Shown one piece after another: positions 1 through 19,412 of a stretch of DNA of 64,000 nt; within the stretch, counting starts at the first letter, position 1, and each line of letters begins with the position of its first letter. Made by a program: the position numbers and the translations under genes. The notes under the pieces are model-generated. The model did no database searches, was not told the origin of the DNA, and worked only from the letters and a program-made list of their open reading frames with translations. The stretch is taken from contig CAMZKV010000018.1 in the NCBI GenBank assembly GCA_947311445.1, positions 89 to 64,088 on the forward strand. Reading direction: 5' to 3'. The stretch comes from an uncultured Chlorobiota bacterium (lineage in GTDB: Bacteria > Bacteroidota > Bacteroidia > Bacteroidales > JAADGE01).

Positions 1-2
1 CT

Positions 3-1997: not shown

Positions 1998-2036
1998 ATC
2001 AATAAGTTATGTTTACAAAAAAAATTAAGCAATTAA

Positions 2037-2654
2037 ATGCAACACATAACCATTTACTATAACACCCGAAGAATAATCTTGTGGCAAAAAACCGAAGAAT
2101 TAGAAATTAAGGTTGAAAATCTTGAAATAGATGAGCCATTTTTGCATAAATGTACAGATAGGATGAACAATATTTTAAATATTTTCTTTAAAAATGAGAA
2201 TATGCAAGAAATTAGTTTTGAACATTACGATTTGAATAAATTGCTCAACGATTTTAAAACTTATTTTAAATATATTGAAGCAGCAGGAGGATTAGTAAGA
2301 AATAAACAAAATGAATTACTTATAATTCACCGTTTTGGAATACCGGATTTGCCAAAAGGGAAAATTGAAAAAAATGAAAGCCCACAAAAAGCTGCATTAA
2401 GAGAAGTTGAAGAAGAATGCGGAATAAGTACTCTTGAAATTGTTGGAAAAGCAAAATCATCATACCATATTTATATTCATAAAAGTAAAACAATTTTAAA
2501 AAAAACACACTGGTTCTACATGAAATACAAAGACAATGAAAAATTAATTCCTCAAACAGAAGAAGATATAAGTCTGGTAGAATGGTGTAATTATGAGAAA
2601 ATAATGAAATATAAGAAGGAAACATACTTGAGCTTAAAATCTTATCTTCTTTAA
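2037..2654 (+). CDS. NUDIX hydrolase with an N-terminal extension of about 90 aa
   Basis: A complete Nudix box is present: GKIEKNESPQKAALREVEEECGI fits GX5EX7REUXEEXGU. The exact start is uncertain. Confidence 0.75.
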   Translation: MQHITIYYNTRRIILWQKTEELEIKVENLEIDEPFLHKCTDRMNNILNIFFKNENMQEISFEHYDLNKLLNDFKTYFKYIEAAGGLVRNKQNELLIIHRFGIPDLPKGKIEKNESPQKAALREVEEECGISTLEIVGKAKSSYHIYIHKSKTILKKTHWFYMKYKDNEKLIPQTEEDISLVEWCNYEKIMKYKKETYLSLKSYLL

Positions 2655-2759
2655 ATACTTGTATTTTGTACTAATGTTTTCAAATTTATTACAAAATGAA
2701 AAATTATTATAGTTATCATTTTTTTATATCTTTGAAATTGTGAGTGTTTTGCAAGAACT

Positions 2760-3317
2760 ATGAAAAAGAGTTACGACAAAGATATTACTATTTTTAATAA
2801 CATTAAAAGCAATAATCAAAAAGCTTTAAATGAACTGTTTAATAAATATTACCATGTTCTTTGTGAATACTCATTTTTGATTACAAATGATAAAGCAGGC
2901 TCTGAAGAAATTGTTGCTGATATTTTTGCGAATATTTGGATTAATAGAGATAAAATATATATAAAAAAGAATGTAAGAGCATATCTTTTCAAGAGTACAA
3001 AAAATTTAGCAATCTCTTACCTTAGAAAAAATAAAAATATTTTTGAGAAAATAGAAGAAGAAAATCTCATTAATACAAATAGTAATTCTCCCGACCAATA
3101 TATTATTAATAGAGAAAAGCAACTAAAAATAAAAGATATTTTGGATATTATTCCTAAAAGGAGCAGAGAAATATTTATTCTTCACCGTTTTAGTGGTCTA
3201 AAATATCAGGATATTGCAGAAACATTAGATATTTCAGTGAAAACAGTTGAGAAACACATATCAAAGGCATTAAGAGTATTGCGAGAAACTTTTCAAGATA
3301 AATCTCAAATAATTTAA
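2760..3317 (+). CDS. RNA polymerase sigma-70 factor, ECF subfamily
   Basis: 185 aa. Region 2-like EEIVADIFANIW and region 4 HTH YQDIAETLDISVKTVEKHISKALRVLR. Size and layout are typical of Bacteroidota ECF sigmas. Confidence 0.85.
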   Translation: MKKSYDKDITIFNNIKSNNQKALNELFNKYYHVLCEYSFLITNDKAGSEEIVADIFANIWINRDKIYIKKNVRAYLFKSTKNLAISYLRKNKNIFEKIEEENLINTNSNSPDQYIINREKQLKIKDILDIIPKRSREIFILHRFSGLKYQDIAETLDISVKTVEKHISKALRVLRETFQDKSQII

Positions 3318-3333
3318 TATTTTTAACCCAACA

Positions 3334-3365
3334 AAAAAAGAGAAAGCAGTTAACTTTCTCTTTTA
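3334..3365. terminator. Bidirectional intrinsic terminator between convergent genes
   Basis: aaaaaagAGAGAAAGcagttaaCTTTCTCTtttt: an 8-bp stem flanked by an A-run and a T-run. It lies between the sigma factor stop and the stop of the 153-aa minus-strand gene. Confidence 0.5.
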
Positions 3366-3384
3366 TATATATTTTTTAAATATA

Positions 3385-3846
3385 TTACTGATTTTTTCCA
3401 ACAAAAGATAGGATGCCTACTGCACAAGTTTTACTTCTGCCTTTCCCAGGTTTAAATCTTATAGAAACATAGTAAACTCCGGATCTTTTACAAATAAAGT
3501 CAAACTTATCGGTATTACTTTTTTCAGTTGAGTTCCATGGTTTTGTCTCTGGATGTCTGCTGTCAAAAAGAGTTAATTTTACATCATTTCTACTTTTTAT
3601 AGGAGTACATAATATAAAACGATATCTAGTTCCTCTGTTTAAAACAACAGGCCATTTTGTTCCGTTAATACTTCTACTTGATCTTACAGCCCTTAATTTT
3701 GTATTAAAGTCTCGAAGATAGATAGCATTACCACCTTGTCTTGCACATTTATATACTCTTTGCTGCTTACATTGTGCTTTTGTTTCTTCTTGCGGTGCAA
3801 AGATAAATAAACTTGTTATTGCTATAAGAATTGCTATTTTCTTCAT
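3385..3846 (-). CDS. Secreted cysteine-containing hypothetical protein (153 aa)
   Basis: N-terminal signal peptide MKKIAILIAITSLFIFAPQEETKAQ and six Cys residues. Its ATG overlaps the stop of the upstream gene by 1 nt (TAATG on the coding strand). I did not recognise a family. Confidence 0.6.
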   Translation of the reverse strand: MKKIAILIAITSLFIFAPQEETKAQCKQQRVYKCARQGGNAIYLRDFNTKLRAVRSSRSINGTKWPVVLNRGTRYRFILCTPIKSRNDVKLTLFDSRHPETKPWNSTEKSNTDKFDFICKRSGVYYVSIRFKPGKGRSKTCAVGILSFVGKNQ

Positions 3847-4742
3847 TATAGTGAGATTAAATTGTTACGAATTTTAATTATTTTATTTGAAATTTTATCT
3901 AAATCTTCTTGTGTGTATTCTATTGTTGTGTGTTCTCCCGGAATTAATAACGTTATATCTCCCTCTTTTATTATTTCATCTTCTCCGTCAATTATTTCAA
4001 TTTTAACATTGTCATACAATGTTGCTAATTCATGAAACTGCTTGTTCATTCCATCGAAACGTGCTTTTTCATTAAACATATCCAATACCTCTAATAGTTC
4101 TTTCAAAATATCTTTTTGTCCTACTATTATCTCTTCGGTTTTTTTATCGCTTTTAAATTGATTAACTTTTGCAGCGAGATATTGTCCTTCTAACCAAACC
4201 CCCGTAATCATTAATGCACTAAGATCACTTCTTCTTGTTTCTCTAAGGTGTGCATCCATATCATGATAGCTGGTAACAGAAAGATACATAAGTTTCTGCA
4301 TATCCGTGCTGTTGGTTGCTAATCTTTTAAGAGTCTGAAAATCAAAGAATTGGTCAACGTCTAGTGCATCTGCAATTCTTTTAATTGATGTTAAATATTC
4401 AACAATTGCATTTTTTCTTTTGTAAACATTTAAATATCCTAAGTCGGCACTTAACATTCCAAGCCCAAGTGCTTTTTCAAAATTTGCATCAAAGTCTCCT
4501 GCTGTTTCTGTTGGTACTAAATTCTTTTTTGAATATGGTACCTTTAAATCTTCAATTGTTGCTGCCATTTCAATTGGAGATGGGAACATTTCAATTAAAG
4601 CATTAATCTTTTCAGGATCAATTTCAACTCTGTTTATTTCTTCATTTGCATCAGGTCCGTCAATAACATCGCTACTGTCATCACCTCCGCAAGAACTAAA
4701 TATTGCAATTATCGAAAGTAAAAAAAATATCTTTTTTACCAT
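3846..4742 (-). CDS. Hypothetical lipoprotein (298 aa)
   Basis: Lipoprotein signal with lipobox Cys (LLSIIAIFSSCGGDD). The rest looks largely helical. I did not recognise a family. Confidence 0.65.
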   Translation of the reverse strand: MVKKIFFLLSIIAIFSSCGGDDSSDVIDGPDANEEINRVEIDPEKINALIEMFPSPIEMAATIEDLKVPYSKKNLVPTETAGDFDANFEKALGLGMLSADLGYLNVYKRKNAIVEYLTSIKRIADALDVDQFFDFQTLKRLATNSTDMQKLMYLSVTSYHDMDAHLRETRRSDLSALMITGVWLEGQYLAAKVNQFKSDKKTEEIIVGQKDILKELLEVLDMFNEKARFDGMNKQFHELATLYDNVKIEIIDGEDEIIKEGDITLLIPGEHTTIEYTQEDLDKISNKIIKIRNNLISL

Positions 4743-4863
4743 AATTATTTTATTTTCATGCTTAATAATTATCCAAAAGTATTAAAAAAAAAAATATCTA
4801 AAAAATATACTTGAATATTTTTACATTTTTATTTTATTAATCGTCAATACTTAAACTTTTATT

Positions 4864-7800
4864 TTACTTCTTTTTAAAACTTATATTTCCAAAAAAGTCA
4901 ATAAGTTTTCGCAAATGATCGTAATATAAAGGTATGTATAATAACAATGACATTGCCCAAATAAATAGGACATTGAACCAAAAAGTACCATAGAACTTAC
5001 CCATAAAATATTTATTTGGCGAATAAAAATGTGCTCTTATACCAATAAAGTTTGTAGCGTCTGGTTCTAAATAAATAGGTTCTTCTTGTCTTATTAATTT
5101 GTCTTTAAATCTTAGAATTTTATTTTTTTCATATATATTTCTTACAATATCGTCTAAATGTTCATTATGGAATTTGTTTCTAAATTGAACATAATAGTTT
5201 GGCTTTCTTTTGTCTTGAAATTCAATAAGTTCTTCTTTAAGTTCATTTGCACTTGAATATATTGCCAAATAAAACTTTTTCCATATTTCTAATTTGTCTA
5301 ATAAAATATAGCCATGTTCTTCAATATCATAATCTTTTATATTCAAAGAATTAATAAGATTTTCAGGAATAACTAGGGAGTCTTTTAATGTTGCATTATC
5401 GGCTTTTAGTACATCAAAATTATTATAATAGACATCAAAAGGAATTTGTTTTACTCCCTGTCCTGTTTTATATTTTTTTAATGTTTTTATTATTTTAAAG
5501 ATTTCTTTATTTTCTTTTGAAATTTCGTTTCTTAAAAGAGCAAGTTCCATTTTTTGAATTTCAATAATGGAGTCTTTGTCTCCAACTTTATCATTAATTT
5601 CATCTTGTAATATTTCAAAAGATTCAATGCTTTCGGATAGTTTTGGAATAAGTTTATCTTGTTTAAAGTTTGCAGTGCTTTTTATTTGATTATATATGAA
5701 GTATTGTTTTTCAAATTTGTTTTCTTTAAATTGCTCTACCATTAATGCTTCGTATGCCCATCTGGAAACCATAACATCTGCAATAAGCGGAACTTTATCC
5801 ACACTGCCAATTAGTCTGTTTAGTTTGTTAAAGCTGAACATTGCTCCCCCGAGTGCCATTTGAGGAATCATTAATAATGGTATTAAAATGTATATTGTTA
5901 CTGCGGAATTAAATGCTGATGAAATGTTTAATCCCATAAAATTGGCAAATACAAAGGTTGAAAATAAAACTATCCAATATTCAAAATACATTCCTTGAAT
6001 TCCTAAAATTGAGTTTCCTATTAAAACAAAAAGTATTGCTTGTATAGCTGACAATGATGTTAATATAATGATTTTTGCAGTTAAATAAGAGGAACGACTT
6101 AGGTGTAGGAACTTTTCTCGTTTTAGAATTTTTCTGTCTCTGAAAATTTCTTCTGCACTTACTGTAAGTCCAAGGAAAAGTGCAACTACAATACTCATAA
6201 AAATGTATGGTGGAATGTTTTCATTGTCAAAAAAGACATATGTTGATGATGTGGGGTCTGCAATATATCTAATTAAAAATGCTAAGATAAATCCAAGTAG
6301 TGGTGCTTCTAGTAAGTTAAGAACTATGTATTGTGTATTACTAATTTTTGAGAGTAAATCTCTTGTTAGGAATATTTTAAATTGATTAAACCAGCCTGGT
6401 ATGTTCAAATCTGCTGGTGGCTCATCGTTTATTTCTTCAATTTCTTCTTTCGCAACTTTTTCTTGATAGTGTTTTTCCCATTCAATAGCCGATATTTTTC
6501 GCTTATCTGTATATTTTCCAAATTCATCTACAACTTCTGCTTCAATAATGTCAAAAATTAATTCAGGAGTAACATTACCACATACACCACATTCTCCAAC
6601 CTCAGAATTTATTTGGTTGTCAATAGTTTTAAAATGTATAACAGCATCAACCGGATTTCCATAATATACCATATATCCACCAGTATCTAGAATTAGCATT
6701 CTGTCAAACATTTTATAAATGTCTGATGATGGTTGGTGTATTACTACAAAAATAAGTTTGCCTTTTAGTGTTAATTCACTTAAAAGTTCCATAACATTTT
6801 CAGAATCTCTTGATGATAATCCCGAGGTAGGCTCATCTACAAAAAGAATTGATGGTTCTCTTATTAGTTCAAGTGCAATATTTAGTCTTTTTCGTTGTCC
6901 TCCGCTGATTGTTTTGTTCATCGGATTACCAACTTTAAGATCTTTTTTTTCGTAAAGACCAAGGTCTTTTAGTGTTTTATGTACTAGTTTTACAAGTTCA
7001 TCTTCTTTTTTGTTTTTAAAACAAAGTTTTGCATTATAGTATAGGTTCTGGAAAACTGTAAGTTCTTCAATAAGTAGGTCGTCTTGCGGAATGTATCCTA
7101 TAACTCCTTCTATTTTGTCTTTATCATGGTGTAAATCAATTCCGTTAATTTTTACACTTCCTTCGGAGGGTGTTGTAATTCCTGAAAGTGTGTTAACCAT
7201 TGTGGTTTTTCCGGAGCCGCTTGCTCCCATAATTCCAACTAATTTTCCATGGCTAACAGAGAAACTAATACCTCTTATACCAATATCTCCGGTTTTAAAT
7301 TTGTATTGGAGATTTGTAACTTTAAATGAGAGATTTGAGATTTTTAAATCTTTCATAAAAGTTGCAACTACATCACTATAGTGTATTGGTTTTCCTTTTG
7401 GTAGTTTTAGTATACTTCCGGGAGCAAATGGGTAAATGCGATTATTATATACTGTTGTGCTGTTTAGGAAAACATCTTGTTTTCCTGTATATTTTAGAAA
7501 GAACAAGTCTGCACTTTTTAAATGTAAAATTATTACACTTCCATGAAGGCTTTCTGAATTTATATGTTGTGCTTTAAGTTGGAGGTGTTCTCTGTCATGT
7601 ATTGTTAAAATAAATTCAGAATCTAAGTCTCTGTAATCGTCTTTTATAACAAAGTTTTCAATTTCTTTGTATTCTTCTTTTTTTATATGGAAAGCATCAG
7701 AAATAACAAAAATAATTTCCATACGTTGTTCGGTAAGTTTCTTTTCTGCATTTACTAATTCGAAAAGACGTGCTAAAACAATTACTTTTTGTTTATGGCT

Positions 7801-8118
7801 TAGGGTTTTGTTAATTTTTCTACAAATTCCTATAACTCTAACAGAATCAAGTACATTAACTTGTCCTTCTTCTGCTCCTCTTCTTACTTCTTTATCTCCT
7901 TGTTTTGCTTCTCTTTTCTTTTTAGCTCTTTGTTTCTTTTTTTCCTCTTTTGCAATATGATTAATGAACAAATCCATATATTCACTCACTTGAGATTTAC
8001 TCAATTGAGATTCGAGAAAAGTTTTAACAAACTTTTCCTCTTGCTCTACAACTCCTTCGTCTTGTTTTGCTATAATTGCAAAAAGTTGCATTAATGCTTT
8101 TAGTATTTGTTCACTCAT
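4864..8118 (-). CDS. Fused ABC transporter ATP-binding/permease protein (ABCG/ABC-2 type) with TerB-like N-terminus and C-terminal extension
   Basis: Walker A GASGSGKTT, signature ISGGQRKRLNIALELI, Walker B ILFVDEPTSGLS, H-loop VIHQPS, then multiple TM helices (ABC-2 membrane type). The N-terminus resembles TerB/DjlA-N (ILKALMQLFAIIAKQDEGVVEQEEKFV ... KQKVIVLARLFELVNAEKKLTEQRMEIIFVISDAF). Confidence 0.85.
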   Translation of the reverse strand: MSEQILKALMQLFAIIAKQDEGVVEQEEKFVKTFLESQLSKSQVSEYMDLFINHIAKEEKKKQRAKKKREAKQGDKEVRRGAEEGQVNVLDSVRVIGICRKINKTLSHKQKVIVLARLFELVNAEKKLTEQRMEIIFVISDAFHIKKEEYKEIENFVIKDDYRDLDSEFILTIHDREHLQLKAQHINSESLHGSVIILHLKSADLFFLKYTGKQDVFLNSTTVYNNRIYPFAPGSILKLPKGKPIHYSDVVATFMKDLKISNLSFKVTNLQYKFKTGDIGIRGISFSVSHGKLVGIMGASGSGKTTMVNTLSGITTPSEGSVKINGIDLHHDKDKIEGVIGYIPQDDLLIEELTVFQNLYYNAKLCFKNKKEDELVKLVHKTLKDLGLYEKKDLKVGNPMNKTISGGQRKRLNIALELIREPSILFVDEPTSGLSSRDSENVMELLSELTLKGKLIFVVIHQPSSDIYKMFDRMLILDTGGYMVYYGNPVDAVIHFKTIDNQINSEVGECGVCGNVTPELIFDIIEAEVVDEFGKYTDKRKISAIEWEKHYQEKVAKEEIEEINDEPPADLNIPGWFNQFKIFLTRDLLSKISNTQYIVLNLLEAPLLGFILAFLIRYIADPTSSTYVFFDNENIPPYIFMSIVVALFLGLTVSAEEIFRDRKILKREKFLHLSRSSYLTAKIIILTSLSAIQAILFVLIGNSILGIQGMYFEYWIVLFSTFVFANFMGLNISSAFNSAVTIYILIPLLMIPQMALGGAMFSFNKLNRLIGSVDKVPLIADVMVSRWAYEALMVEQFKENKFEKQYFIYNQIKSTANFKQDKLIPKLSESIESFEILQDEINDKVGDKDSIIEIQKMELALLRNEISKENKEIFKIIKTLKKYKTGQGVKQIPFDVYYNNFDVLKADNATLKDSLVIPENLINSLNIKDYDIEEHGYILLDKLEIWKKFYLAIYSSANELKEELIEFQDKRKPNYYVQFRNKFHNEHLDDIVRNIYEKNKILRFKDKLIRQEEPIYLEPDATNFIGIRAHFYSPNKYFMGKFYGTFWFNVLFIWAMSLLLYIPLYYDHLRKLIDFFGNISFKKK

Positions 8119-8216
8119 TTGCTATAAATTTAAATAATAAACATTAAAAAGAATTTTTCAAAAACCTAGCCATTGGAATTTGTTAAATTCTTTTTATTTT
8201 TTATTTTAAATTAAAG

Positions 8217-8606
8217 TTAGTCAATTGTGTAGCTTATCTGTTCAAAAGGAACTTCAACAATGTCTTCATATTCTTCTCCTGCCTCTTCCATGTCTTCATC
8301 ATCATCAGGAAAATGCCATCTTACAAGTACATCTTTGCCATCGTCAGCCATATCTTCTAGTTTCAAGAGTATGTCTAATAAAAGTTTTGAAGATGCGGTA
8401 TTAAAATATTCTAACTTAATGTTTAAAATGGTTTTTTCTAATGGAGATTCTGAGTATTCTTCTAGCCATTCTAATATGGGTTCATAAAACGATACAACAT
8501 CTTCGGGAAGAGATCTTCCTGAGATTTCCATAATTGGGTTATCTGGATTTGCATCTAAAATAACTTGTGGAGTATCGTCTGTACCTTCGATTCTTATTAC
8601 TTGCAT
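8217..8606 (-). CDS. SiaC-like regulatory phosphoprotein (DUF1987)
   Basis: 129 aa. The pattern I recall for DUF1987/SiaC is TPQVILDANPDNPIMEISGRSLPED ... FYEPILEWL ... LEYFNTASSK, and this protein matches it. It has an acidic C-terminal tail and sits 9 nt downstream of the SiaB-like gene. Confidence 0.8.
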   Translation of the reverse strand: MQVIRIEGTDDTPQVILDANPDNPIMEISGRSLPEDVVSFYEPILEWLEEYSESPLEKTILNIKLEYFNTASSKLLLDILLKLEDMADDGKDVLVRWHFPDDDEDMEEAGEEYEDIVEVPFEQISYTID

Positions 8607-8615
8607 AATTATTAT

Positions 8616-9194
8616 TTATTTTGTTCTTGAAATTGTAGATGTTAATACAAAGTATGATTTTTTTTCATTAATATCCAAAAAAGAATATATTAATTTTTGT
8701 TCTGTTTTTCTTACAATGTCAATAAAACCTAGTCCTGCACCGCCTTTTTCAGATAGTCGTCCTTTTTTAATTTTTTCTTTATATAATTTTTTTAGAGACA
8801 TTTTACTTCCAGAGTTTATTGCTTCGAGTTTTATTTTTAAGTTGGGAATTTCTTTTTTATTAATAGAGTTTCCTGTTGTTATTGTATATTCATTTTTAGT
8901 TTTACTCATAAAAAATATTCCTTGTCCATCGGTTGGAGAATTTTTGTCAATCTTTTCTTCTGAGTGTTTACCTATGTTTTGCAAAGATTCAATCATAACA
9001 TGAAAAACTCTTCTTTTAAGAGAATTAGATTCATTGTCAATAGCTATATGGCTTTCAGCTAGAGAGCTAAATACTTTTGTTATTTCATGAGAAATTTCAC
9101 CTTCGTAAGCAAAACTGACATTATTATTTTTCATTTTTGTATAAAAGTCATAAACGAAATCAAGGTCAATGTTATTTTTATTTGTATCTGCCAT
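8616..9194 (-). CDS. SiaB-like protein kinase (GHKL/anti-sigma-kinase-like, DUF6272)
   Basis: 192 aa. It has the ATP-lid-like motif EKGGAGLGFIDIVRKT near the C-terminus and the N-box-like motif IESLQNIGKH. It is positioned between the PP2C and DUF1987 genes, as in Sia cassettes. Confidence 0.8.
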   Translation of the reverse strand: MADTNKNNIDLDFVYDFYTKMKNNNVSFAYEGEISHEITKVFSSLAESHIAIDNESNSLKRRVFHVMIESLQNIGKHSEEKIDKNSPTDGQGIFFMSKTKNEYTITTGNSINKKEIPNLKIKLEAINSGSKMSLKKLYKEKIKKGRLSEKGGAGLGFIDIVRKTEQKLIYSFLDINEKKSYFVLTSTISRTK

Positions 9195-9205
9195 GAAACT
9201 TGTTT

Positions 9206-11794
9206 TTAAAATTCAATTCCTAAAAATAGAACGTCGTCAATTTGTTTGTAATTTTTTTTCCATTCATCAAATTGGGCTACAAAAAAATCGTGAAATTGGT
9301 TCATAGTAAAATCTTTATTTTCTATTATTTCTTTTTGCATTCTTCCTGCTTGATACTTTCTTCCGTCTTTTCCTCCAATTTGATCTGGAAAACCATCGGT
9401 AAATATAAAAATTTTATCGTTCTTCTCAATATTAATTTTATGAGTTGTAAATTTTTTTTCTTTTTGTCCTGGTCTTCCTCGCATTGGTTTTCCTCCAACA
9501 GCCATCCTGTCACCTTTAAATCTTGAAATTTCGGAGCCTCTTAAAAGTAAAAGAGGGTTATGTGCTCCGGCATATTCTAAGATGTTTTCTTTGTAATTAA
9601 TTTTACATAGGGCAATATCCATGCCATCCCGTGCTTTAGAATCTGGGGAATCTTGTTTGAGAGTTCTTCTTACTCTAAAATGTAATTTGTCAAGTATTTC
9701 TCCTGCTGTTTGGTTTTCGTCTTCATTCACAATGCTGTTAAGAGAGAAGTAGCCAATAAATGAAAGCAAAGTTCCCGGGACTCCATGTCCGGTGCAATCT
9801 ATTGCTGCGATATAAATTTCATTTTCTGTAACATAGAACCATGGTAAATCCCCACTAACAACATCTCTTGGTTTATAGAACATAAAAGATTTTGGCAGGT
9901 ATCTTTTTATAATTTTAAAATCGGGGACAATTGCAGATTGAATTCTTTGTGCATAATTTATACTTTCTGTAATGTTTTTGTTCTTTTTTTCAATTTCTTG
10001 CTCAATTTCTTTGCTTTGTGTGATGTCGTGAACAACAAAGAGGAATGTTATGATTTCCCCATTTTCATCTGTTTCGGGTATGGAGTTAAATTGAACTATT
10101 CGTTTTGTATTGTTAATCTTGAAAATTGTTTCTTCTTGAATTTCTACACCTGCAATATTTGTCTTTTTTATAATTTCATTAAAAAAATCTGCAACTTCCT
10201 GATTTAGTTCAGCAGTATTTATGTTTCTTCCAATTAATTCATTGCTTGCTTTTCCAATAAATTTTTCGGTCATAGGGTTTGCATAGAAGAAGTTACCTGT
10301 TTGTCCGACTCTAATAATCATGTCAAGACTATTTTCAGAAAGAGCTTGCATTTCACTGCTTAATCTTTTTGCCGTTTCTGCATCTTTTCTTACTGTTATA
10401 TCTCTTGTATTAAAAATAATTCCGCCAATTGCTGGGTTTTCAGAGAGGTTTCTGCCTCTTGTTTCTAGCCAAACTTTTTCTTCGTTTTTATTTATGTATT
10501 GATATTCAAATGTTTTTTCAGAATCAGGCTTTATAATTAGATCATTAAAAGCATTTTGTAATATATTGCCTCCTCTTTCAAAACGATTAATTCCTAGCAT
10601 TTCTTCGGGGTTAAAGCCTAATATGTTCTTAACTGATGGGCTTACGTATTGTACTATTCCTTTTTTATCGTATATGGTTATAACTTCTGATGCGTTTTCT
10701 AATAGTGCATGTATTCTTTTTTGTCCTGTTTCAACTTCAAATATTTTAGCTGCTAATTCTTTGTTTGATTTTTCAAGCTCAATTTGAGTTAGTTTCATTT
10801 GCTTCGCATTTTCACGAAGGTCATTTTCGTTTTTCTGTAATTTATTTGTTAATTTTTGTGCTTCATCTAGTAATTTTTTTGTTCTTTCATTGGCTTTGAA
10901 ATTAAATAGGGTTTGTCCAATAATTTCCTCTAATTCAGTTAATAAAGAGATTGTACTTTTAGGGTATTCTTGTTGTAAACTTGCAATTTCAATAACCCCT
11001 TGTATCTTTTCATCTCCGGTAAGAGGAAGAATTAGTATAACACCGGGTTTTTTTGTGCCTATTAATCCTGAGCTTATTGAAAAATAATCTTCAGGAATAT
11101 TTTGTCTGTAAATATAATTTTTTTCATAGGCTGCCTGACCAATTAAGCCTTGTCCAATTTTAAAACTTTGGGTTATTTTTTTTTCTCTTTTATAGGCATA
11201 AGAAAAAACATTTTGTAGTTCTTGTTTTTCTTCATTAAATAAATAAAAGGAACCTTGTATTGATTTTGTGTATTCTATTATATTTATAAGAATGTCTTTT
11301 ATTAAAGGATTAAGGTCGTTATGTTTACGTAAGATGTCAGCTATTAACTCTTTGCCTTTTGATATTCCTGAAATTTCTTGTTCTTCTTTATATTTTGCAA
11401 TGAAGTTTTTTTTCAGTAATAGTAAAGATTTATTTGTTTTTGTGTTTTGAAATGAGAGGTTTTTTTCGGGGTTATAGTTGTCTTTCCCTATTTCTTCTGC
11501 AAATTGTGTAAATTGCGAAATAATTTTTTTCTGATTTTCAATTTCATCAAAAAGAGATGATTGAATTTTTCCTACTTTTTCTGAAATAAAAAAGGCAACA
11601 ATTGCTAATACAAAAGGTGCTAAATCAATAATGAAATTAAGAGGGTTATCAGTATGTATTAATTTGATTTGTTCTAAACTAAATGAGTATTCTCCTGATA
11701 ATATTTGAAAAGACCAAGCTGTTAACGGAAAAAAAAGTCCGAAAAAAAAGCCGTAAAAAGCATACTTTATTATATTTGAATTTAATTTGCTCAC
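9206..11794 (-). CDS. Membrane-anchored GAF-PAS-PAS SpoIIE/PP2C protein phosphatase (SiaA-like role)
   Basis: Two N-terminal TM helices. GAF region (GQGLIGQAAYEKNYIY ... ILPLTGDEKIQGVIEIAS), a coiled coil, and two PAS-like regions. C-terminal SpoIIE/PP2C motifs: RDVVSGDLPWFY, AAIDCTGHGVPG, DGMDIALC, IFIFTDGFPDQ. Confidence 0.85.
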   Translation of the reverse strand: MSKLNSNIIKYAFYGFFFGLFFPLTAWSFQILSGEYSFSLEQIKLIHTDNPLNFIIDLAPFVLAIVAFFISEKVGKIQSSLFDEIENQKKIISQFTQFAEEIGKDNYNPEKNLSFQNTKTNKSLLLLKKNFIAKYKEEQEISGISKGKELIADILRKHNDLNPLIKDILINIIEYTKSIQGSFYLFNEEKQELQNVFSYAYKREKKITQSFKIGQGLIGQAAYEKNYIYRQNIPEDYFSISSGLIGTKKPGVILILPLTGDEKIQGVIEIASLQQEYPKSTISLLTELEEIIGQTLFNFKANERTKKLLDEAQKLTNKLQKNENDLRENAKQMKLTQIELEKSNKELAAKIFEVETGQKRIHALLENASEVITIYDKKGIVQYVSPSVKNILGFNPEEMLGINRFERGGNILQNAFNDLIIKPDSEKTFEYQYINKNEEKVWLETRGRNLSENPAIGGIIFNTRDITVRKDAETAKRLSSEMQALSENSLDMIIRVGQTGNFFYANPMTEKFIGKASNELIGRNINTAELNQEVADFFNEIIKKTNIAGVEIQEETIFKINNTKRIVQFNSIPETDENGEIITFLFVVHDITQSKEIEQEIEKKNKNITESINYAQRIQSAIVPDFKIIKRYLPKSFMFYKPRDVVSGDLPWFYVTENEIYIAAIDCTGHGVPGTLLSFIGYFSLNSIVNEDENQTAGEILDKLHFRVRRTLKQDSPDSKARDGMDIALCKINYKENILEYAGAHNPLLLLRGSEISRFKGDRMAVGGKPMRGRPGQKEKKFTTHKINIEKNDKIFIFTDGFPDQIGGKDGRKYQAGRMQKEIIENKDFTMNQFHDFFVAQFDEWKKNYKQIDDVLFLGIEF

Positions 11795-11805
11795 GTGTGT
11801 TGTTG

Positions 11806-13860
11806 TTATTTAAAGCTATTTAACCACATAGAATATTTCTTGTCTTTTTCAGTATCATATTTTGCTTTTATTAAGTTTTCCTTTTTAATATACTTTTTAA
11901 GATCTTGTGTGGTTTTTTTTATTTCGATATTTTTTGTAGCTAATAAATTTTCTTGTTCTTGTGTTTTTTCGGAAAGAATCTTATTTTTTTCTTCAAATTC
12001 TTGGTATTTGCTTATGTCTTCAGCTAAAACAAGAATTCGTACTATAGTTCCTTTTTCATTTTTAATTGGAGAGAAATGTGTGTTTACTTTTAAAATACTT
12101 TTGTCTTTTAATGTAAAAGTTAATATTTGTGTAATAGATTTGTCTGATTTAACATCTTTCACTATTTTGTCTATGAGTTTATCATCTTTTGAATCAACTA
12201 TGTCTGAAAGTGGTCTATTGCTAATTTCAGAAGGAACTATGTTTAAAGCCTTAAGAAGTCGTTGATTTGCAGAAGTTATTTTTCCTCTTGTGTTTAGTTC
12301 AATTTTAATTAAAACATTATTTACAGCTGATATAATATTTGCTATTTCAGTTTCAGATTTTCTTAATTCTTGTTGCGTTTGTTTTAATTGTCGTACTTTT
12401 TCAGACATTTCAGAATCTCTGTAAGCTAGTTCAGTTGATTTTTTTTGTGTTTCTTCCAGCAAAACAGTGGTTCTGTCTGTAATTTTTGTTGTTTCAAGAG
12501 TAGAGGCAATATCTTCGGCAATAGTTTCCATAAAATCTGCTTCGTCTTTTGTGAACTTGTAGAAAGATGCAATTTCTATAACTCCAAGAATTTTTTCGTC
12601 TGTTTTAAGAGGTACTATTAGTATGTTTGTTGGAGGTGCTTCTCCAAGGCCGGATTCAATATCCATATAATCATCTGGAACATTATTTAGCCAAATAGTA
12701 TTTTTTTCTAATGCACACATTCCAATTAAACCTTCTCCAACAGGTATTTTTTTATTTATTGATTTTATTCTGTCGTATGCAAATGCAGATATTAAATTTA
12801 GATAAGGCTGATTAGTTTCGTCGTTAATAATAAAAAAGCCTCCTTGTGCAACATTGAAAAATTTCACTAGGTTTTTTATGGATGCTTCTGCTAATTTGTT
12901 TATTGACGAAGATGATTCTCTAAGTATGTCATTAAATTTTGCTTGTCCTTCTGAGAACCATTGTCTGATTCTTTCTTCTTCAAGTCTTATTTTGTTTAAT
13001 TTAATATTCTCTTTTAGTTTGTCTCTTAGCTTAACTAATGAACTTTCTAATACTACATCTTTGTTGTAATCTTCAAATTGTACATCATAATTGTCATGTA
13101 CTAACTGAATTACAAATTTTGAAATCTCATTAGTTTTATAATATAGTTTGTTTAAATTAGAATGTACATTAGAAAAATCGTCATTAAAATTAGATATTTT
13201 ATGTATTGGTTTCCCTACGTAAATATTTGTAATTGCATCTTCAACAGTACTAATTGGTTTAACGAATTTATTTTTTACAAAGAAATAGATTAAAAGACTA
13301 AAAGTAATATAAAATAATATGGCTGTATAATGGATGAATTTTAGGATGAATATATCATCTTTATATTCTATTGCATATGCTTTTTCAATTTCCTCATGCA
13401 TTAGTTTAAGGGTCTTATACTTTTCGTTTATATTTTTTAAAATAGTTTCATTGTCTTTTATTCTTAATCGTTGATTCAAAGTATAATAATATTCATCCCA
13501 ACTTGTTTTAATAGTTTTTAATTTTTCTAATATTTCTCCGGATGGTTTAGTAAATATAAATGCTTCATCTTTTTCAGAAAAGTTACCCCCGTTTATAAGA
13601 ATAGACAAATTGTTCTTATATAGTTTTGCAGCATCAAAAATTTCTTTTTTAAAATTTGATGATTTTTTTGAAAGAGTATGTACTTCACCTAACAGCAAAG
13701 TGTTTGTTCTAATAAGTTTTGCAGAGTTTAAATTATTTTGCTCTGAATTTATATATAAGTCAGATAAAATAAAATGCAAAACACTAACAATAATTATTCC
13801 TAGAAGTAAAAATCCGGCTTTATGTAATGATAAAGTTTTTTTCAAAACCATAGTGTACAA
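11806..13860 (-). CDS. Membrane sensor protein with periplasmic helical domain, GAF and PAS, and no recognisable output domain
   Basis: TM helix, then a helical extracytoplasmic region of about 150 aa (PilJ/NarX-like layout), then a second TM helix. This is followed by a coiled coil, a GAF region (GEGLIGMCALEKNTIW ... IVPLKTDEKILGVIEIAS), another coiled coil, a PAS-like region and a coiled-coil tail. Its stop is 11 nt upstream of the PP2C gene. Confidence 0.75.
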   Translation of the reverse strand: MYTMVLKKTLSLHKAGFLLLGIIIVSVLHFILSDLYINSEQNNLNSAKLIRTNTLLLGEVHTLSKKSSNFKKEIFDAAKLYKNNLSILINGGNFSEKDEAFIFTKPSGEILEKLKTIKTSWDEYYYTLNQRLRIKDNETILKNINEKYKTLKLMHEEIEKAYAIEYKDDIFILKFIHYTAILFYITFSLLIYFFVKNKFVKPISTVEDAITNIYVGKPIHKISNFNDDFSNVHSNLNKLYYKTNEISKFVIQLVHDNYDVQFEDYNKDVVLESSLVKLRDKLKENIKLNKIRLEEERIRQWFSEGQAKFNDILRESSSSINKLAEASIKNLVKFFNVAQGGFFIINDETNQPYLNLISAFAYDRIKSINKKIPVGEGLIGMCALEKNTIWLNNVPDDYMDIESGLGEAPPTNILIVPLKTDEKILGVIEIASFYKFTKDEADFMETIAEDIASTLETTKITDRTTVLLEETQKKSTELAYRDSEMSEKVRQLKQTQQELRKSETEIANIISAVNNVLIKIELNTRGKITSANQRLLKALNIVPSEISNRPLSDIVDSKDDKLIDKIVKDVKSDKSITQILTFTLKDKSILKVNTHFSPIKNEKGTIVRILVLAEDISKYQEFEEKNKILSEKTQEQENLLATKNIEIKKTTQDLKKYIKKENLIKAKYDTEKDKKYSMWLNSFK

Positions 13861-14021
13861 TAAATTAATTAGCTTTCAAAAATAACATTTTTTTGTTTAT
13901 TTAAAAACTGTATTTGATGTGATTTTAAAAATATGGTATATTTATTTTCTGTTTTCAATATTTTGAGTTTGTTTTTATATTTTTGCATAAATGTCTAAAA
14001 ATGAACTTTCGTACAAAAGAA

Positions 14022-14984
14022 ATGTTTAATATAACTAATAATACGGAGTTTGAAAAACTTTGTTTCAATATTTTTAATTATCAATATAAGTTCAATGTTG
14101 TGTATAAAAACTATGTGAATAATTTAAAAGTTGACATTTCTAAAGTTACTGAAATAAAAGATATTCCATTCATTCCAATTGATTTTTACAAAACACATAA
14201 AATAATTACAAATGCGACTACTATTGAAACAACATTTAGAAGTAGTGGAACAACAGGTTCAAATATAAGTGAACATCATATCATAGACTTATCAATTTAT
14301 GAAAAAAGTTTTTTAAAAACCTTCAATAAATTTTATGGAAATCCTGAGAATTTTACATTTTTAGCTCTACTTCCATCATATTCCGAAAGGAATGATTCTT
14401 CTTTAATATATATGGTTCAGAAATTTATGGAAATTAGCAAAAAAAAGGATGCAGGTTTTTTTCTTTATAATTTTGACGAGCTTTATAAGAAAATTTACGA
14501 ACTTGAGAAACGAAATGATAAAACTATCTTATTCGGAGTTAGTTTTGCTCTGTTAGATTTTTTTGAAAAATATCAGATTAAATTGAAGAACACTATAATT
14601 ATTGAAACTGGCGGGATGAAAGGAAGAAAAAAAGAAATTGTAAGAGAGGAACTTCATTCTAAAATTAAAAGAGCAACAAATTTAGAAGCGATTCACTCAG
14701 AGTATGGGATGACAGAATTACTTTCTCAGGCATATGCAAAAAAGCAAAACAGATACCAGACTCCCCCATGGATGAAAGTTTTAATTAGAGATGTTAATGA
14801 TCCTTTTACTTATGTTAAACATGGAGCAACAGGGGGCATAAATATAATTGATCTTGCAAATATAAATTCATGTTCGTTCATAGAGACAAAAGATTTAGGG
14901 AAGTTACACTATGATAATTCTTTTGAAGTATTGGGAAGATTTGATAATTCAGATATACGAGGTTGTAATTTAATGGTAATTTAA
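14022..14984 (+). CDS. LuxE/PaaK-like acyl-protein synthetase / acyltransferase family protein
   Basis: Adenylate-forming-like motifs FRSSGTTGS and IIIETGGMKGRKKE, plus YGMTEL. The ORF track starts at a TTG (13983). A TATTTTTG -7 box at 13978-13985 argues for an ATG start at 14001 or 14022. Confidence 0.65.
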   Translation: MFNITNNTEFEKLCFNIFNYQYKFNVVYKNYVNNLKVDISKVTEIKDIPFIPIDFYKTHKIITNATTIETTFRSSGTTGSNISEHHIIDLSIYEKSFLKTFNKFYGNPENFTFLALLPSYSERNDSSLIYMVQKFMEISKKKDAGFFLYNFDELYKKIYELEKRNDKTILFGVSFALLDFFEKYQIKLKNTIIIETGGMKGRKKEIVREELHSKIKRATNLEAIHSEYGMTELLSQAYAKKQNRYQTPPWMKVLIRDVNDPFTYVKHGATGGINIIDLANINSCSFIETKDLGKLHYDNSFEVLGRFDNSDIRGCNLMVI

Positions 14985-15034
14985 ATTATTCAGCAGTTTA
15001 TTTTTAACTTTGTAATAAATTAAAAAAAGAAATT

Positions 15035-15814: not shown

Positions 15815-15980
15815 ATCTTTAATCATCAAATAGTTGCAAGTCATCAAAAAAAATAGGCAATTCATCAATACAATGTTTTGAAATAAGTTTTTTACAATAC
15901 ATTTGTGTCAACAATTAACTAATAATTTAATAAGGTAACAATTAACGAATAACTAACTTAAAACTTACTTTGTAAAAATT

Positions 15981-16012
15981 AAAAAGAGAGGCGGATTTTG
16001 TCTCTCTTTTTT
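15981..16012. terminator. Intrinsic terminator downstream of the crotonase gene
   Basis: aaaaAGAGAGgcggattttgtCTCTCTtttttt: a 6-bp stem extendable with the flanking A/T runs, followed by a T-run. Confidence 0.5.
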
Positions 16013-16278
16013 ATGTTGTTTTTTAATTTTTTCATTAAACATTTTTTTTCTTTTATAAATAATTATATTGGTTAAAAATAATACTATCGTTACAAGATAT
16101 AAGATAATTTAATGTTTCTAACACATTTAACAAAGAGTATTTTTGCTTTTCAAAATATTTGGGTTTAAACTTTTTTGATACAGTTTATTATTTATTTATC
16201 TTTGAGAAAAAATAATATAAAATAAGCAAATGCAGATGTATAATATTTAGTGTTAGTTAATTATATAATATTAATCGT

Positions 16279-17001: not shown

Positions 17002-17151
17002 AATCTACTTCTATTAATAATAAAAATATATTTTTGTAGTTTTTTATGCTATAAAATATCATTAAAAATACAAATTTACATTAAAAATAATTGGCTAATA
17101 AAATTCAATTTTTAGTTTTTCAATCTTAAAAAAAATAAAAACTTCTGACAG

Positions 17152-18144: not shown

Positions 18145-18263
18145 GCACTCTATGTTAAAAACTTTTTAAGAGTGTAAAATAATTTCCAAACAGAACAAAC
18201 CAAAATGCCATTTTCAATAATAATTAATTATTTTTGCAACTCAAAAAATTTAAAATTTCAATT

Positions 18264-19361: not shown

Positions 19362-19412
19362 TTTTTAATTTGGTTTGTTTTTTGTATCTTTATATTTTCT
19401 AAAACTTAAAAT

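What the first reader, a model, noticed from the sequence alone, without database searches (positions are those of the whole stretch)
3385..13860. Sia-type partner-switch cassette without a diguanylate cyclase, next to an atypical ABC exporter and two secreted proteins: a candidate uncharacterised signalling-export system
Seven co-oriented minus-strand genes make up the locus.
- The first four have 9-11 nt spacers, so they are almost certainly one transcript: output-less GAF-PAS sensor, GAF-PAS-PP2C phosphatase, SiaB-like kinase, DUF1987/SiaC-like phosphoprotein.
- After a 98-nt gap comes a 1084-aa ABCG-type exporter.
- After a 121-nt gap comes a translationally coupled lipoprotein / secreted Cys-protein pair.

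In the characterised Pseudomonas SiaABCD system, unphosphorylated SiaC activates the diguanylate cyclase SiaD. No GGDEF protein is encoded here or anywhere else in the window, so the output of this switch is unknown. The nearest plausible target is the ABC exporter, whose N-terminal regulatory region precedes the ATPase. A Ser/Thr partner switch gating an exporter would be a new wiring for this module.
Basis: partly seen in the sequence, partly recalled or inferred. Interest (0 to 1): 0.78.

Follow-up and report, generated by a model that had tools for sequence, protein, structure and literature searches.

The report
Phospho-switch cassette locked to ABC exporter
A kinase, phosphatase and small phosphoprotein switch known from Pseudomonas biofilm control sits here, and in about 100 other Bacteroidota-type genomes and metagenome contigs, next to an unusual membrane exporter and two secreted proteins instead of its usual enzyme partner, so it probably controls export, which nobody has tested.

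Summary
Seven co-oriented minus-strand genes (3385-13860) encode:
- a TM-GAF-PAS sensor with no output domain;
- a 2TM-GAF-PAS-PAS-PP2C phosphatase (SiaA-like);
- a SiaB-family kinase;
- a SiaC/DUF1987 phosphoprotein with the phospho-Thr motif intact;
- a 1084-aa TerB-headed ABCG-fold half-transporter;
- a lipoprotein;
- a small secreted protein.

No GGDEF motif occurs in any frame of the window, or within about 10 kb of the cassette in 80 related genomes.

New result: the link is conserved.
- In 80 species-level genomes the ABC gene directly follows siaC in 76 of 77 testable loci. The lipoprotein follows in 66/67 and the small protein in 59/60, while the flanks differ.
- In a deeper metagenome sample of the ABC family, siaC lies in the locus in 37 of 58 testable cases, in at least five gene orders. 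Twenty-one loci lack it nearby.
- The upstream sensor is the variable part. In 23/80 genomes a CheR-CheR-CheB-GAF module takes its place.

I infer that the ABC protein's 280-residue helical-hairpin insert is periplasmic.

Best reading (about 0.5): SiaB/SiaA set the phosphorylation state of SiaC, which binds and gates the exporter. This rests on gene context only. It is a new variant of a known kind.

The parts
11806..13860 (-). 684-aa membrane sensor with no output domain: TM 15-33, about 138-aa predicted periplasmic segment, TM 172-190, GAF 318-456, PAS 520-617. It is a variable accessory input, not part of the core.
   Evidence: Pfam GAF_2 2.4e-18 and PAS_9 5.9e-10. Hydrophobic segments. A homologue scoring over 150 bits is present in only 38/59 related loci. 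The true start may be the ATG at 13851 rather than the TTG at 13860 (sequence).
9206..11794 (-). 862-aa SiaA-like phosphatase: membrane anchor (one hydrophobic segment detected at 52-70, a second at about 10-28 read by eye), GAF 165-295, two PAS domains (about 360-600), PP2C/SpoIIE 658-861.
   Evidence: Pfam SpoIIE 1.4e-13, PAS and GAF. NF038263 SiaA scores 149.8 bits over the PP2C part only, below the equivalog cutoff of 700. Matches the 6k4e SiaA-PP2C structure at 1.3e-27 with the Asp motifs aligned. Present in 67/67 testable related loci.
8616..9194 (-). 192-aa SiaB-family Ser/Thr kinase (DUF6272).
   Evidence: PF19788 5.7e-38. NF038262 scores 157.4 bits, above the cutoff of 85. Matches 6kko_A at 4.3e-11, and 'VMIESLQNI' aligns with SiaB 'VYIEMTQNI'. 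Present in 78/78 related loci.
8217..8606 (-). 129-aa SiaC-like phosphoprotein. The predicted phospho-acceptor is Thr70, in YFNTASS. An invariant acidic segment, DDDEDMEEAGEEY, aligns with SiaC residues 100-112 (R103-E110 contact region).
   Evidence: PF09345 1.9e-38. Matches 6kko_C/6k4f at 8e-14 with T68 aligned to T70. It is the most conserved protein of the block, with mean identity 0.78. Motif alignment.
8119..8216 (-). 98-nt siaC-ABC intergenic gap with no terminator-like hairpin.
   Evidence: Terminator scan and the sequence itself.
7645..8118 (-). ABC residues 1-158: cytoplasmic helical TerB-like domain.
   Evidence: PF05099 TerB scores 28.5 bits against a cutoff of 24.4 when scanned alone. 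PF05099 is precomputed for most homologues. The AF2 model shows helices 3-158. In every full-length representative listed (about 980-1160 aa), among 619 representatives in all, the module starts at or near residue 1.
7369..7623 (-). ABC residues 166-250: small all-beta cytoplasmic domain of unassigned family, containing the strongly conserved LPKGKP.YYSD motif.
   Evidence: AF2 strands 170-238. Invariant columns. No Pfam or PDB sequence-profile match, and no FHA match.
6619..7329 (-). ABC residues 264-500: nucleotide-binding domain.
   Evidence: PF00005 3.8e-33. Foldseek matches to ABCG5/G8, ABCG1 and ABCG2 with target-normalised TM-score about 0.75.
5833..6393 (-). ABC residues 576-762: connecting helix and TM1-TM5 of an ABC-2/ABCG-type membrane domain.
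   Evidence: PF01061 1.8e-19. Hydrophobic segments and K/R distribution. AF2 helices.
4987..5832 (-). ABC residues 763-1044: about 280-aa insert between TM5 and TM6. It consists of two long alpha-hairpins (801-885, 932-971) and a beta subdomain, and is predicted to be periplasmic.
   Evidence: AF2 pLDDT is mostly 85-95 here. The topology is inferred from the TM count and the positive-inside rule: loop 661-676 has 6 K/R and the C-tail has 5 K/R.
4864..4986 (-). ABC residues 1045-1084: TM6 (1046-1064), a K/R-rich cytoplasmic tail and the stop codon.
4743..4863 (-). 121-nt gap before the lipoprotein gene. It holds a match to the Bacteroidetes -7 promoter motif, TACTTTTG, at 4774-4781 (-). This may be an internal promoter. 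No terminator-like hairpin is present.
   Evidence: The motif is no more frequent in the window than chance (144 found, 129 expected), so this is only a candidate.
3846..4742 (-). 298-aa lipoprotein (lipobox Cys18) of an uncharacterised family: helical bundle, four-strand beta meander and a C-terminal helix.
   Evidence: No Pfam, NCBIfam or PADLOC hit. 2418 homologous clusters; every hit that carries a name is called hypothetical. Cys18 is invariant. AF2 pLDDT 82.7, pTM 0.77. No PDB fold match, best E 0.22. Next to the ABC gene in 66/67 near loci and 47/60 distant loci.
3385..3846 (-). 153-aa secreted protein with a signal peptide and 6 Cys. Its start overlaps the lipoprotein stop (TAATG).
   Evidence: No family hit. 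Present in 59/60 near loci. Orthologue alignment.
3336..3364 (.). Terminator-like hairpin of 11-12 pairs, readable on both strands. It is the only minus-strand terminator-like site in 3200-14100, lies 21 nt after the last gene, and is shared with the convergent ECF sigma gene.

Best explanation
This is a conserved Bacteroidota envelope-export module whose activity is set by a Sia-type partner switch.

Shown:
- The locus encodes a SiaA-like PP2C phosphatase with GAF/PAS sensory domains, a SiaB-family kinase and a SiaC-like phosphoprotein with the phospho-Thr motif.
- It also encodes a TerB-headed ABCG-fold half-transporter, a lipoprotein and a small secreted protein.
- These genes stay together across deep divergence and across gene-order changes.
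- No diguanylate cyclase is nearby.

Inferred:
1. Signals sensed by the membrane-anchored GAF/PAS phosphatase shift the balance between SiaA and SiaB. The adjacent sensor, or the CheR/CheB/GAF module in other lineages, may help.
2. That balance sets the phosphorylation state of SiaC Thr70.
3. By analogy with SiaC-SiaD, unphosphorylated SiaC binds a cytoplasmic part of the ABC protein through its N-T motif and its acidic alpha-2/alpha-3 face. The target could be the TerB or beta module, or the NBD.
4. Binding stabilises or blocks the productive homodimer, switching ATP-driven export on or off.
5. The ABCG-type membrane domain expels a lipid-like or other hydrophobic substrate into its own 280-residue periplasmic hairpin domain. 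From there the substrate passes to the lipoprotein and the small secreted protein.

The substrate and the sign of regulation are unknown.
For: Synteny in 80 species-level genomes (tallied):
- ABC directly downstream of siaC in 76/77 testable loci;
- lipoprotein 66/67;
- small protein 59/60;
- siaB 78/78;
- siaA 67/67.
The flanking genes differ between loci, and the window's flanks recur only in the same-species contig L005.

Deeper sample of 80 metagenome loci, with ABC 40-51% identical to a distant member:
- siaC lies in the locus in 37 of 58 testable cases;
- 23 are convergent downstream, 8 colinear, 2 divergent upstream, 1 has siaC-lipoprotein-ABC, and 3 have siaC further away;
- linked and unlinked loci are intermixed on the ABC tree.
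Linkage that persists while gene order changes is a classical sign of functional coupling.

In the convergent arrangement siaB-siaC stay beside the ABC gene although no PP2C gene was detected beside them (phmmer scan of all loci; Pfam on L101 only). So SiaBC track the transporter more tightly than they track their phosphatase.

No GGDEF-motif ORF occurs in the window or in any of the 80 genome loci.

SiaC is the most conserved protein of the block: 0.78 mean identity, against 0.62 for ABC and 0.44 for the lipoprotein.

The segment of SiaC that aligns with residues 100-112 of P. aeruginosa SiaC reads DDEDM.EAGE[DE]Y. P. aeruginosa SiaC uses alpha-3 residues R103, L107, E110 and D114 to hold the SiaD stalk (PMC8457831). 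The motif is near-invariant in all ABC-linked SiaCs of both arrangements, yet differs from P. aeruginosa SiaC.

The ABC N-terminal module is strongly conserved. In every full-length representative listed, among 619 representatives in all, it starts at or near residue 1 of an ABC protein of about 1000 residues.

Literature support:
- The authors of the SiaC-SiaD structure propose that DUF1987 proteins modulate adjacent proteins (PMC8457831).
- The STAS protein MlaB binds and regulates the ABC ATPase MlaF (PMC7367683).
- The ABC transporter Rv1747 is positively regulated by Ser/Thr phosphorylation (PMC3138270).
Against: - All evidence is genomic context and homology. No interaction, phosphorylation or transport was tested, and no complex model could be run.
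- 21 of 58 testable distant ABC loci have no siaC within the flanks. One near genome, L016, has siaA-siaB-siaC without the ABC gene.
- ABC proteins with and without a linked siaC have the same architecture and the same regional conservation. No transporter feature therefore tracks the presence of SiaC.
- The 121-nt gap before the lipoprotein gene carries a possible promoter motif, and single-transcript status is not shown.
- The 80 genome loci are the best 80 of 274 relatives, so they are biased towards close relatives.
- The periplasmic placement of the insert is inferred, not shown.
Confidence: 0.5

Rival explanations
1. The transporter is the input, not the output. As in Bce-type flux sensing, the ABC protein, its periplasmic domain and the two secreted partners would report envelope or substrate status to SiaB/SiaC. 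The switch's real output would then be a regulator or enzyme encoded elsewhere, bound by SiaC or released by SiaB.
For: The same synteny data fit equally well. The transporter carries two extra cytoplasmic domains of unknown role, TerB and the beta domain, which could be signalling surfaces. In the convergent loci no PP2C is adjacent, so the local unit could be a sensor-transducer set. Flux sensing by ABC transporters is established for BceAB (my own knowledge).
Against: No conserved candidate output gene lies in the flanks of the 80 genomes. The ECF sigma factor beside the window's block is not conserved there. The SiaA-like phosphatase already carries GAF and PAS input domains, which makes a second input less necessary.
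Confidence: 0.17
2. The genes are co-regulated with no direct contact. The Sia module and the exporter would serve the same physiological response, such as surface or biofilm remodelling, and be co-transcribed for that reason. SiaC would act on an unlinked target.
For: Operons often combine regulators and effectors of one response. About a third of distant ABC loci lack a nearby siaC, and L016 keeps siaABC without the ABC gene.
Against: Linkage survives at least five different gene orders, including a convergent one in which siaC-siaB cannot be co-transcribed with the ABC gene. That argues against co-transcription as the reason for proximity. In Pseudomonas the partner switch acts post-translationally on the product of the neighbouring gene (PMC8457831).
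Confidence: 0.15
3. This is a classical SiaABCD logic with a distant partner: SiaC activates a diguanylate cyclase encoded outside the window.
For: Only 64 kb of the genome is visible. The SiaC N-T motif that contacts SiaD is conserved.
Against: No GG[DE]EF-motif ORF occurs in the window or within about 10 kb in 80 genomes. The SiaC segment that aligns with its SiaD-contacting alpha-3 residues has a different, subfamily-specific sequence. NCBIfam's SiaC, SiaB and SiaA equivalog cutoffs are all missed: 81.5 against 150, 67.2 against 225, and 149.8 against 700. From my own knowledge, c-di-GMP signalling proteins are scarce in Bacteroidota.
Confidence: 0.05

Closest known systems
SiaABCD of Pseudomonas aeruginosa (PP2C phosphatase SiaA, kinase SiaB, phosphoprotein SiaC, diguanylate cyclase SiaD)
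   Same: It has the same three switch proteins by profile and by direct match to the solved structures. The phospho-Thr motif, the kinase Glu motif and the PP2C Asp motifs are conserved. The gene order siaA-siaB-siaC-target is the same (PMC7647112, PMC8457831).
   Different: There is no SiaD or other GGDEF gene. The position after siaC is taken by an ABC exporter. The phosphatase has 2TM-GAF-PAS-PAS input domains. All three proteins score below the NCBIfam equivalog cutoffs. The SiaC segment that aligns with its target-binding alpha-3 residues has a distinct invariant acidic motif.
MlaFEDB with its STAS subunit MlaB (E. coli)
   Same: A small protein with a STAS-like fold (SiaC is structurally STAS-like, PMC7647112) is associated with an ABC transporter. 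That transporter works with periplasmic and lipoprotein partners in the envelope. MlaB binds and regulates the ATPase MlaF (PMC7367683).
   Different: No sequence relationship was found. There is no MCE protein here. Mla has separate NBD and TMD subunits and a different membrane fold. To my knowledge MlaB is not cycled by a dedicated kinase and phosphatase. The resemblance is functional only.
Rv1747 of Mycobacterium tuberculosis (FHA-ABC exporter regulated by the kinase PknF)
   Same: It is an ABC-2/ABCG-like half-transporter with N-terminal cytoplasmic regulatory domains, encoded beside a Ser/Thr kinase, with activity controlled by Thr phosphorylation (PMC3138270).
   Different: The N-terminal domains here are TerB plus an unassigned beta domain, not FHA. 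The kinase is an RsbW/SiaB-type kinase acting on a separate phosphoprotein, not a Hanks kinase acting on the transporter.
Eukaryotic ABCG half-transporters (ABCG1, ABCG2, ABCG5/G8, AtABCG25)
   Same: The best structural matches cover the NBD-TMD core, with target-normalised TM-score about 0.75 and E down to 2.7e-23. The NBD-first order is shared. Their substrates are lipids, sterols or hormones, which suggests a hydrophobic substrate here.
   Different: Sequence identity is only about 20%. This protein adds a TerB domain, a beta domain and an insert of about 280 residues at the position of the last extracellular loop.
RsbU/RsbV/RsbW-type partner switches (sigma-B; BtrUVW; HsbA)
   Same: The logic is the same: a PP2C phosphatase and a GHKL-type kinase act on a small STAS-like antagonist.
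   Different: No sigma or anti-sigma pair is conserved in the block. The adjacent ECF sigma gene is specific to this genome.

Membership tests
SiaABCD signalling system | A DUF1987/SiaC phosphoprotein with the phospho-acceptor Thr | tested here: met
   PF09345 1.9e-38. T68 of 6kko_C aligns with T70. The NCBIfam SiaC equivalog cutoff is not reached, 81.5 against 150.
SiaABCD signalling system | A SiaB-type kinase | tested here: met
   NF038262 SiaB_fam_kinase scores 157.4 bits, above the cutoff of 85. The strict SiaB equivalog NF038264 scores 67.2 against 225. Matches 6kko_A at 4.3e-11.
SiaABCD signalling system | A PP2C phosphatase, SiaA | tested here: met
   SpoIIE 1.4e-13. Matches 6k4e at 1.3e-27 with the Asp motifs aligned. 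The equivalog score is 149.8 against 700, and the input domains differ.
SiaABCD signalling system | A GGDEF diguanylate cyclase, SiaD, as the co-encoded output | tested here: not met
   No G[GAS][DE]EF motif in any frame of the window. None in ORFs of at least 150 aa in 80 related loci with flanks of about 10 kb.
ABCG / ABC-2 (type V fold) exporters | NBD followed by an ABC-2 membrane domain in one chain, with an ABCG-like fold | tested here: met
   PF00005 and PF01061. TIGR00955 scores 255.6 bits, below its subfamily cutoff of 736. Foldseek target-normalised TM-score is about 0.75 to ABCG5/G8, ABCG1 and ABCG2.
TerB domain proteins | A match to PF05099 above the gathering score | tested here: met
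   28.5 bits against 24.4 for residues 1-165 scanned alone. The whole protein gives 20.2, below the cutoff. PF05099 is precomputed for most homologues.
FHA-domain ABC transporters (Rv1747-like) | An FHA domain N-terminal to the NBD | tested here: not met
   No FHA hit for residues 160-265 in 23 family members at E up to 10. None with a profile against PDB sequences. A fold-level test of this domain alone was not possible.
Mla-type lipid transport system | An MlaD/MCE protein, an MlaE permease, and a STAS subunit by sequence | tested here: not met
   No MCE, MlaE or STAS Pfam hit on any of the seven proteins. The lipoprotein model has no PDB fold match.
Known anti-phage defence systems | A match to PADLOC system-specific models | tested here: not met
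   Only generic ABC-ATPase matches (mad3, mad8, AbiLi) on the NBD. There were no hits on the other six proteins.
Partner switch controlling a sigma factor (RsbUVW-like) | A conserved co-encoded sigma or anti-sigma factor | tested here: not met
   An ECF sigma gene at 2760-3317 is adjacent in this window, but no homologue is found in any of the other loci.

The most novel reading that the evidence does not exclude
A Ser/Thr partner switch directly gates an ABC exporter. SiaC, in one phospho-state, would clamp the cytoplasmic domains of a TerB-ABCG half-transporter and control its dimerisation or ATPase cycle. The transporter's built-in periplasmic hairpin domain, with a new-fold lipoprotein and a small secreted protein, would form a previously unrecognised trans-envelope export route for a lipid-like substrate, widespread in the sampled Bacteroidota-type genomes and metagenomes.
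Probability: 0.4. Interest if true: 0.78.

Novelty: new variant of a known kind. Interest (0 to 1): 0.62.

Why it matters
Partner switches are known to control sigma factors, diguanylate cyclases and secretion regulators. Post-translational control of an ABC exporter by such a switch has not been described in the literature I could search.

If the wiring is real, it would matter in four ways:
1. It would give DUF1987/SiaC proteins a second defined class of target. This would test the published proposal that they regulate adjacent proteins.
2. It would add a reversible, signal-dependent mechanism to the few known ways in which ABC transporters are regulated.
3. It would assign a role to a large uncharacterised protein set: 619 representative ABC N-terminal modules and 2418 lipoprotein clusters with no Pfam family and no structural relative.
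4. It would point to an unstudied envelope export route in anaerobic, marine-sediment and rumen Bacteroidota.

The system is compact, six genes, and has clear mutational handles: T70, the kinase Glu, the PP2C Asp residues and the Walker motifs.

Tried and rejected
1. FHA hypothesis. By eye, residues 166-250 of the ABC protein resembled the C-terminal half of an FHA domain. That would have given a direct phospho-Thr reader. No FHA signal appeared with Pfam on 23 members at E up to 10 or with a family profile against PDB sequences. I dropped the idea. The domain could not be searched alone at fold level.

2. Sigma-factor output. The ECF sigma gene at 2760-3317 is convergent with the block, but no homologue lies beside the block in any other locus. 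Rejected.

3. Defence-system reading, prompted by TerB. PADLOC gave only generic ABC hits. Rejected.

4. RNA element or riboswitch in the leaders. Rfam found nothing in 1-20000 at E up to 0.1.

5. Fold of the lipoprotein. The model is confident, but there is no significant PDB match. This says nothing about function.

6. A transporter feature that tracks SiaC linkage. Regional identities of ABC proteins from colinear, convergent and unlinked loci are alike, so there is no discriminating signal.

7. A first attempt to fetch distant loci with an alignment of N-termini alone failed, because it had no conserved stretch. I replaced it with a full-length alignment.

8. The sigma-70 promoter scan is uninformative here: 62 sites found against 58 expected. 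The Bacteroidetes -7 motif is also at chance frequency.

9. Cluster look-ups gave no organism names for the isolate-sized contigs.

Full report
**1. The observation**

- Spacers are 11, 11 and 9 nt. The two gaps are 98 and 121 nt. The last two genes overlap in TAATG.
- The window has 28.8% G+C.
- Pfam and NCBIfam confirm each assignment:
  - the 129-aa protein is PF09345 SiaC (E 1.9e-38);
  - the 192-aa protein is DUF6272 and passes NCBI's SiaB-family kinase model (157 bits, cutoff 85);
  - the 862-aa protein is GAF, two PAS and SpoIIE/PP2C;
  - the 684-aa protein is GAF-PAS with no output domain;
  - the 1084-aa protein has ABC_tran followed by ABC2_membrane.
- None of the three Sia-like proteins reaches the strict NCBIfam equivalog cutoffs. 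They are relatives of the Pseudomonas proteins, not orthologues by that standard.

Each matches the solved P. aeruginosa structure directly.
- SiaC matches 6kko_C and 6k4f at E 8e-14. The phosphorylated T68, in YLNTSS, aligns with T70 in YFNTASS. The role of T68 is from PMC7647112.
- SiaB matches 6kko_A at 4e-11.
- The PP2C domain matches 6k4e at 1.3e-27, with the metal-binding Asp motifs aligned.

A six-frame search for G[GAS][DE]EF finds nothing in the 64 kb.

**2. Anatomy of the transporter and its partners**

- Scanned alone, residues 1-165 pass Pfam's TerB threshold. Most homologues carry a precomputed TerB hit.
- An AlphaFold2 model was built on 60 homologues, with mean pLDDT 79.7. It shows:
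  - a helical TerB domain (3-158);
  - a small all-beta domain (170-240);
  - the NBD (264-500);
  - the membrane domain (from 576);
  - two long alpha-hairpins (801-885, 932-971);
  - a beta subdomain and a last hydrophobic helix (1046-1064).
- Foldseek places the core with ABCG5/G8, ABCG1, ABCG2 and plant ABCG25, with target-normalised TM-score about 0.75.
- Hydrophobic segments and the positive-inside rule indicate that residues 763-1044 form a large periplasmic loop between TM5 and TM6, not a cytoplasmic tail. Loop 661-676 has 6 K/R, the C-tail has 5, and the loops predicted to face outward have none. This is an inference.
- The lipoprotein has an invariant lipobox Cys and 2418 homologous clusters; every hit that carries a name is called hypothetical, and none has a Pfam domain. 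Its model is confident (pLDDT 82.7, pTM 0.77) but has no significant PDB fold match (best E 0.22).
- The small secreted protein has no family hit either.
- The only minus-strand terminator-like hairpin between 3200 and 14100 lies just after the last gene (3336-3364). This is consistent with one long operon but does not prove it. A Bacteroidetes -7-like motif sits in the 121-nt gap, though that motif is at chance frequency in the window.

**3. Is the linkage real?**

Two context look-ups of ABC homologues, at 60% and 80% identity, showed the same seven-gene order with unrelated flanks.

A scan of one genome per species with a SiaC alignment found 274 relatives, of which the best 80 were fetched. 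All are MAGs, most labelled Bacteroidales, Marinilabiliales or Salinivirgaceae. Some are labelled Chlorobi. In these loci:
- the ABC gene lies immediately downstream of siaC in 76 of 77 testable loci;
- the lipoprotein is present in 66/67 and the small protein in 59/60;
- siaB is present in 78/78 and siaA in 67/67;
- the upstream sensor is present in only 38/59.

The one exception, L016, has a split siaA, then siaB and siaC, then unrelated genes. The window's own flanking genes recur only in the same-species contig L005. No GGDEF-motif ORF occurs in any of the 80 loci. Lipoprotein homologues at 41% identity still sit in the same block.

These 80 loci are biased towards close relatives, so I sampled further out.
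- The ABC N-terminal module (residues 1-265) finds 619 representatives among 1.84 billion proteins. Every full-length representative listed is about 980-1160 residues long, with the module at or near its N-terminus.
- I took twelve distant members, 28-35% identical in the module, and fetched 80 metagenome loci.
- There the gene order changes but the association largely persists:
  - 23 loci are lipoprotein-small protein-ABC with siaC-siaB convergent just downstream;
  - 8 are colinear like the window;
  - 2 have siaC divergent upstream, 1 has siaC-lipoprotein-ABC, and 3 have siaC a few kb away;
  - 21 testable loci have none, and 22 are too short to tell.
- The lipoprotein gene is adjacent to the ABC gene in 47 of 60 testable loci.
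- On an ABC tree the colinear type forms a clade with the window, while convergent and unlinked loci are intermixed. Adjacency has therefore been lost or gained repeatedly.
- In the convergent type no PP2C gene was detected next to siaB (Pfam check on L101 only).

The conserved core is therefore ABC, lipoprotein, small protein, SiaB and SiaC.

**4. Mechanism**

In Pseudomonas, unphosphorylated SiaC binds the dimeric coiled-coil stalk of SiaD through N67-T68-S69 and helices alpha-2 and alpha-3, and promotes the active dimer. Phosphorylation of T68 blocks binding (PMC8457831). The authors suggest that DUF1987 proteins generally modulate adjacent proteins.

Here SiaC is the most conserved protein of the block (0.78 mean identity, against 0.62 for ABC, 0.56 for SiaB and 0.44 for the lipoprotein). 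The segment aligned with SiaC residues 100-112, which include the alpha-3 contact residues R103, L107 and E110, carries a near-invariant acidic motif, DDEDM.EAGE[DE]Y. The motif is shared by colinear and convergent loci but differs from P. aeruginosa SiaC. That is what a common, subfamily-specific partner would produce.

A half-transporter must dimerise to work, so a SiaC-type dimer clamp is a natural way to gate it.

My best explanation, at confidence about 0.5, is that the SiaA/SiaB balance sets SiaC phosphorylation and SiaC gates the exporter. The exporter would hand a hydrophobic substrate to its periplasmic domain, the lipoprotein and the small secreted protein. Only the gene content and the linkage are shown. 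Binding, the docking site, the sign of regulation and the substrate are inferred.

Rival readings:
- the transporter is a co-sensor and the output lies elsewhere (0.17);
- the genes are co-regulated without contact (0.15);
- SiaC acts on a distant diguanylate cyclase (0.05).

**5. Comparison with known systems**

- The locus contains a Sia-type switch but fails the SiaABCD membership test on SiaD.
- The nearest functional precedents are MlaB-MlaF, a STAS protein regulating an ABC ATPase (PMC7367683), and Rv1747/PknF, an ABC exporter regulated by Thr phosphorylation through FHA domains (PMC3138270).
- Neither is related by sequence. The FHA idea for the beta domain found no support.
- PADLOC and Rfam searches were negative.
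- Full-text searches found no paper linking SiaB/SiaC or DUF1987/DUF6272 with an ABC transporter.

**6. Verdict**

The proposed wiring remains a hypothesis. It is a new variant of a known kind of system: a Sia-type partner switch with a new output class. It is widespread in the sampled Bacteroidota-type genomes and metagenomes, and it is compact and testable. Interest 0.62.

Noticed in passing
L076:3718-6744 (also L085:1037-3211); 23 of the 80 genome loci L005-L084: In Salinivirgaceae/Marinilabiliales-type genomes the upstream output-less sensor is replaced by CheR-CheR-CheB-small GAF protein (about 256 aa), directly upstream of siaA. This is a chemotaxis-style methylation module with no MCP gene in view, apparently feeding a partner switch.
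   Followed up: partly
window 2760-3317 (+): An ECF-type sigma-70 factor (Sigma70_r2 and r4_2) is convergent with the block and shares the bidirectional hairpin at 3336-3364. No homologue lies beside the block in any other locus.
   Followed up: yes
L016:2472-6097 and downstream: This is the one near genome without the transporter: siaA split into two ORFs, then siaB and siaC, then a CNNM/CorC gene on the other strand and TPR genes. It may be a decaying copy or a MAG assembly artefact.
   Followed up: partly
L095-L163 (23 loci), e.g. L101:6515-12786: There is an alternative stable gene order: lipoprotein-small protein-ABC, then siaC-siaB convergent. No PP2C phosphatase gene is adjacent. In L101 the neighbours are an M48-like peptidase, a DUF4139-like protein and an S41 peptidase.
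   Followed up: partly
window 8217-8606 (-), SiaC residues 100-113: The acidic motif DDEDM.EAGE[DE]Y is near-invariant in all ABC-linked SiaC proteins. It is absent from P. aeruginosa SiaC, which has RRNERVAELAEEF at the aligned position.
   Followed up: partly
window 3846-4742 (-): The lipoprotein family has 2418 clusters at E up to 1e-3, no Pfam model and no PDB fold match despite a confident model. It looks like an undescribed domain family.
   Followed up: partly
window 7840-7960 (-), ABC residues about 53-93: A Lys/Arg-rich, low-confidence linker (AKEEKKKQRAKKKREAKQGDKEVRRG) sits inside the TerB region. In distant homologues the equivalent stretch is a basic, Ser-rich segment such as KRRSLSAVK or SEKRLSVSSVK. 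It ends at a nearly invariant Ser (S92 here). Its role is unknown.
   Followed up: no
window 16279-17001 (+) and 20498-21259 (-); 19413-20357 (+): Two LytTR-type response regulators and a PKD-domain protein lie a few kb upstream of the block. No histidine kinase was seen between them.
   Followed up: no
L005 (CAMZKL010000068.1) and other loci: The closest public contig (SiaC 98% and ABC 97% identical) is labelled 'uncultured Chlorobi bacterium', as are several other loci. Most near relatives are labelled Bacteroidales. The taxonomic labels of these MAGs are inconsistent.
   Followed up: no
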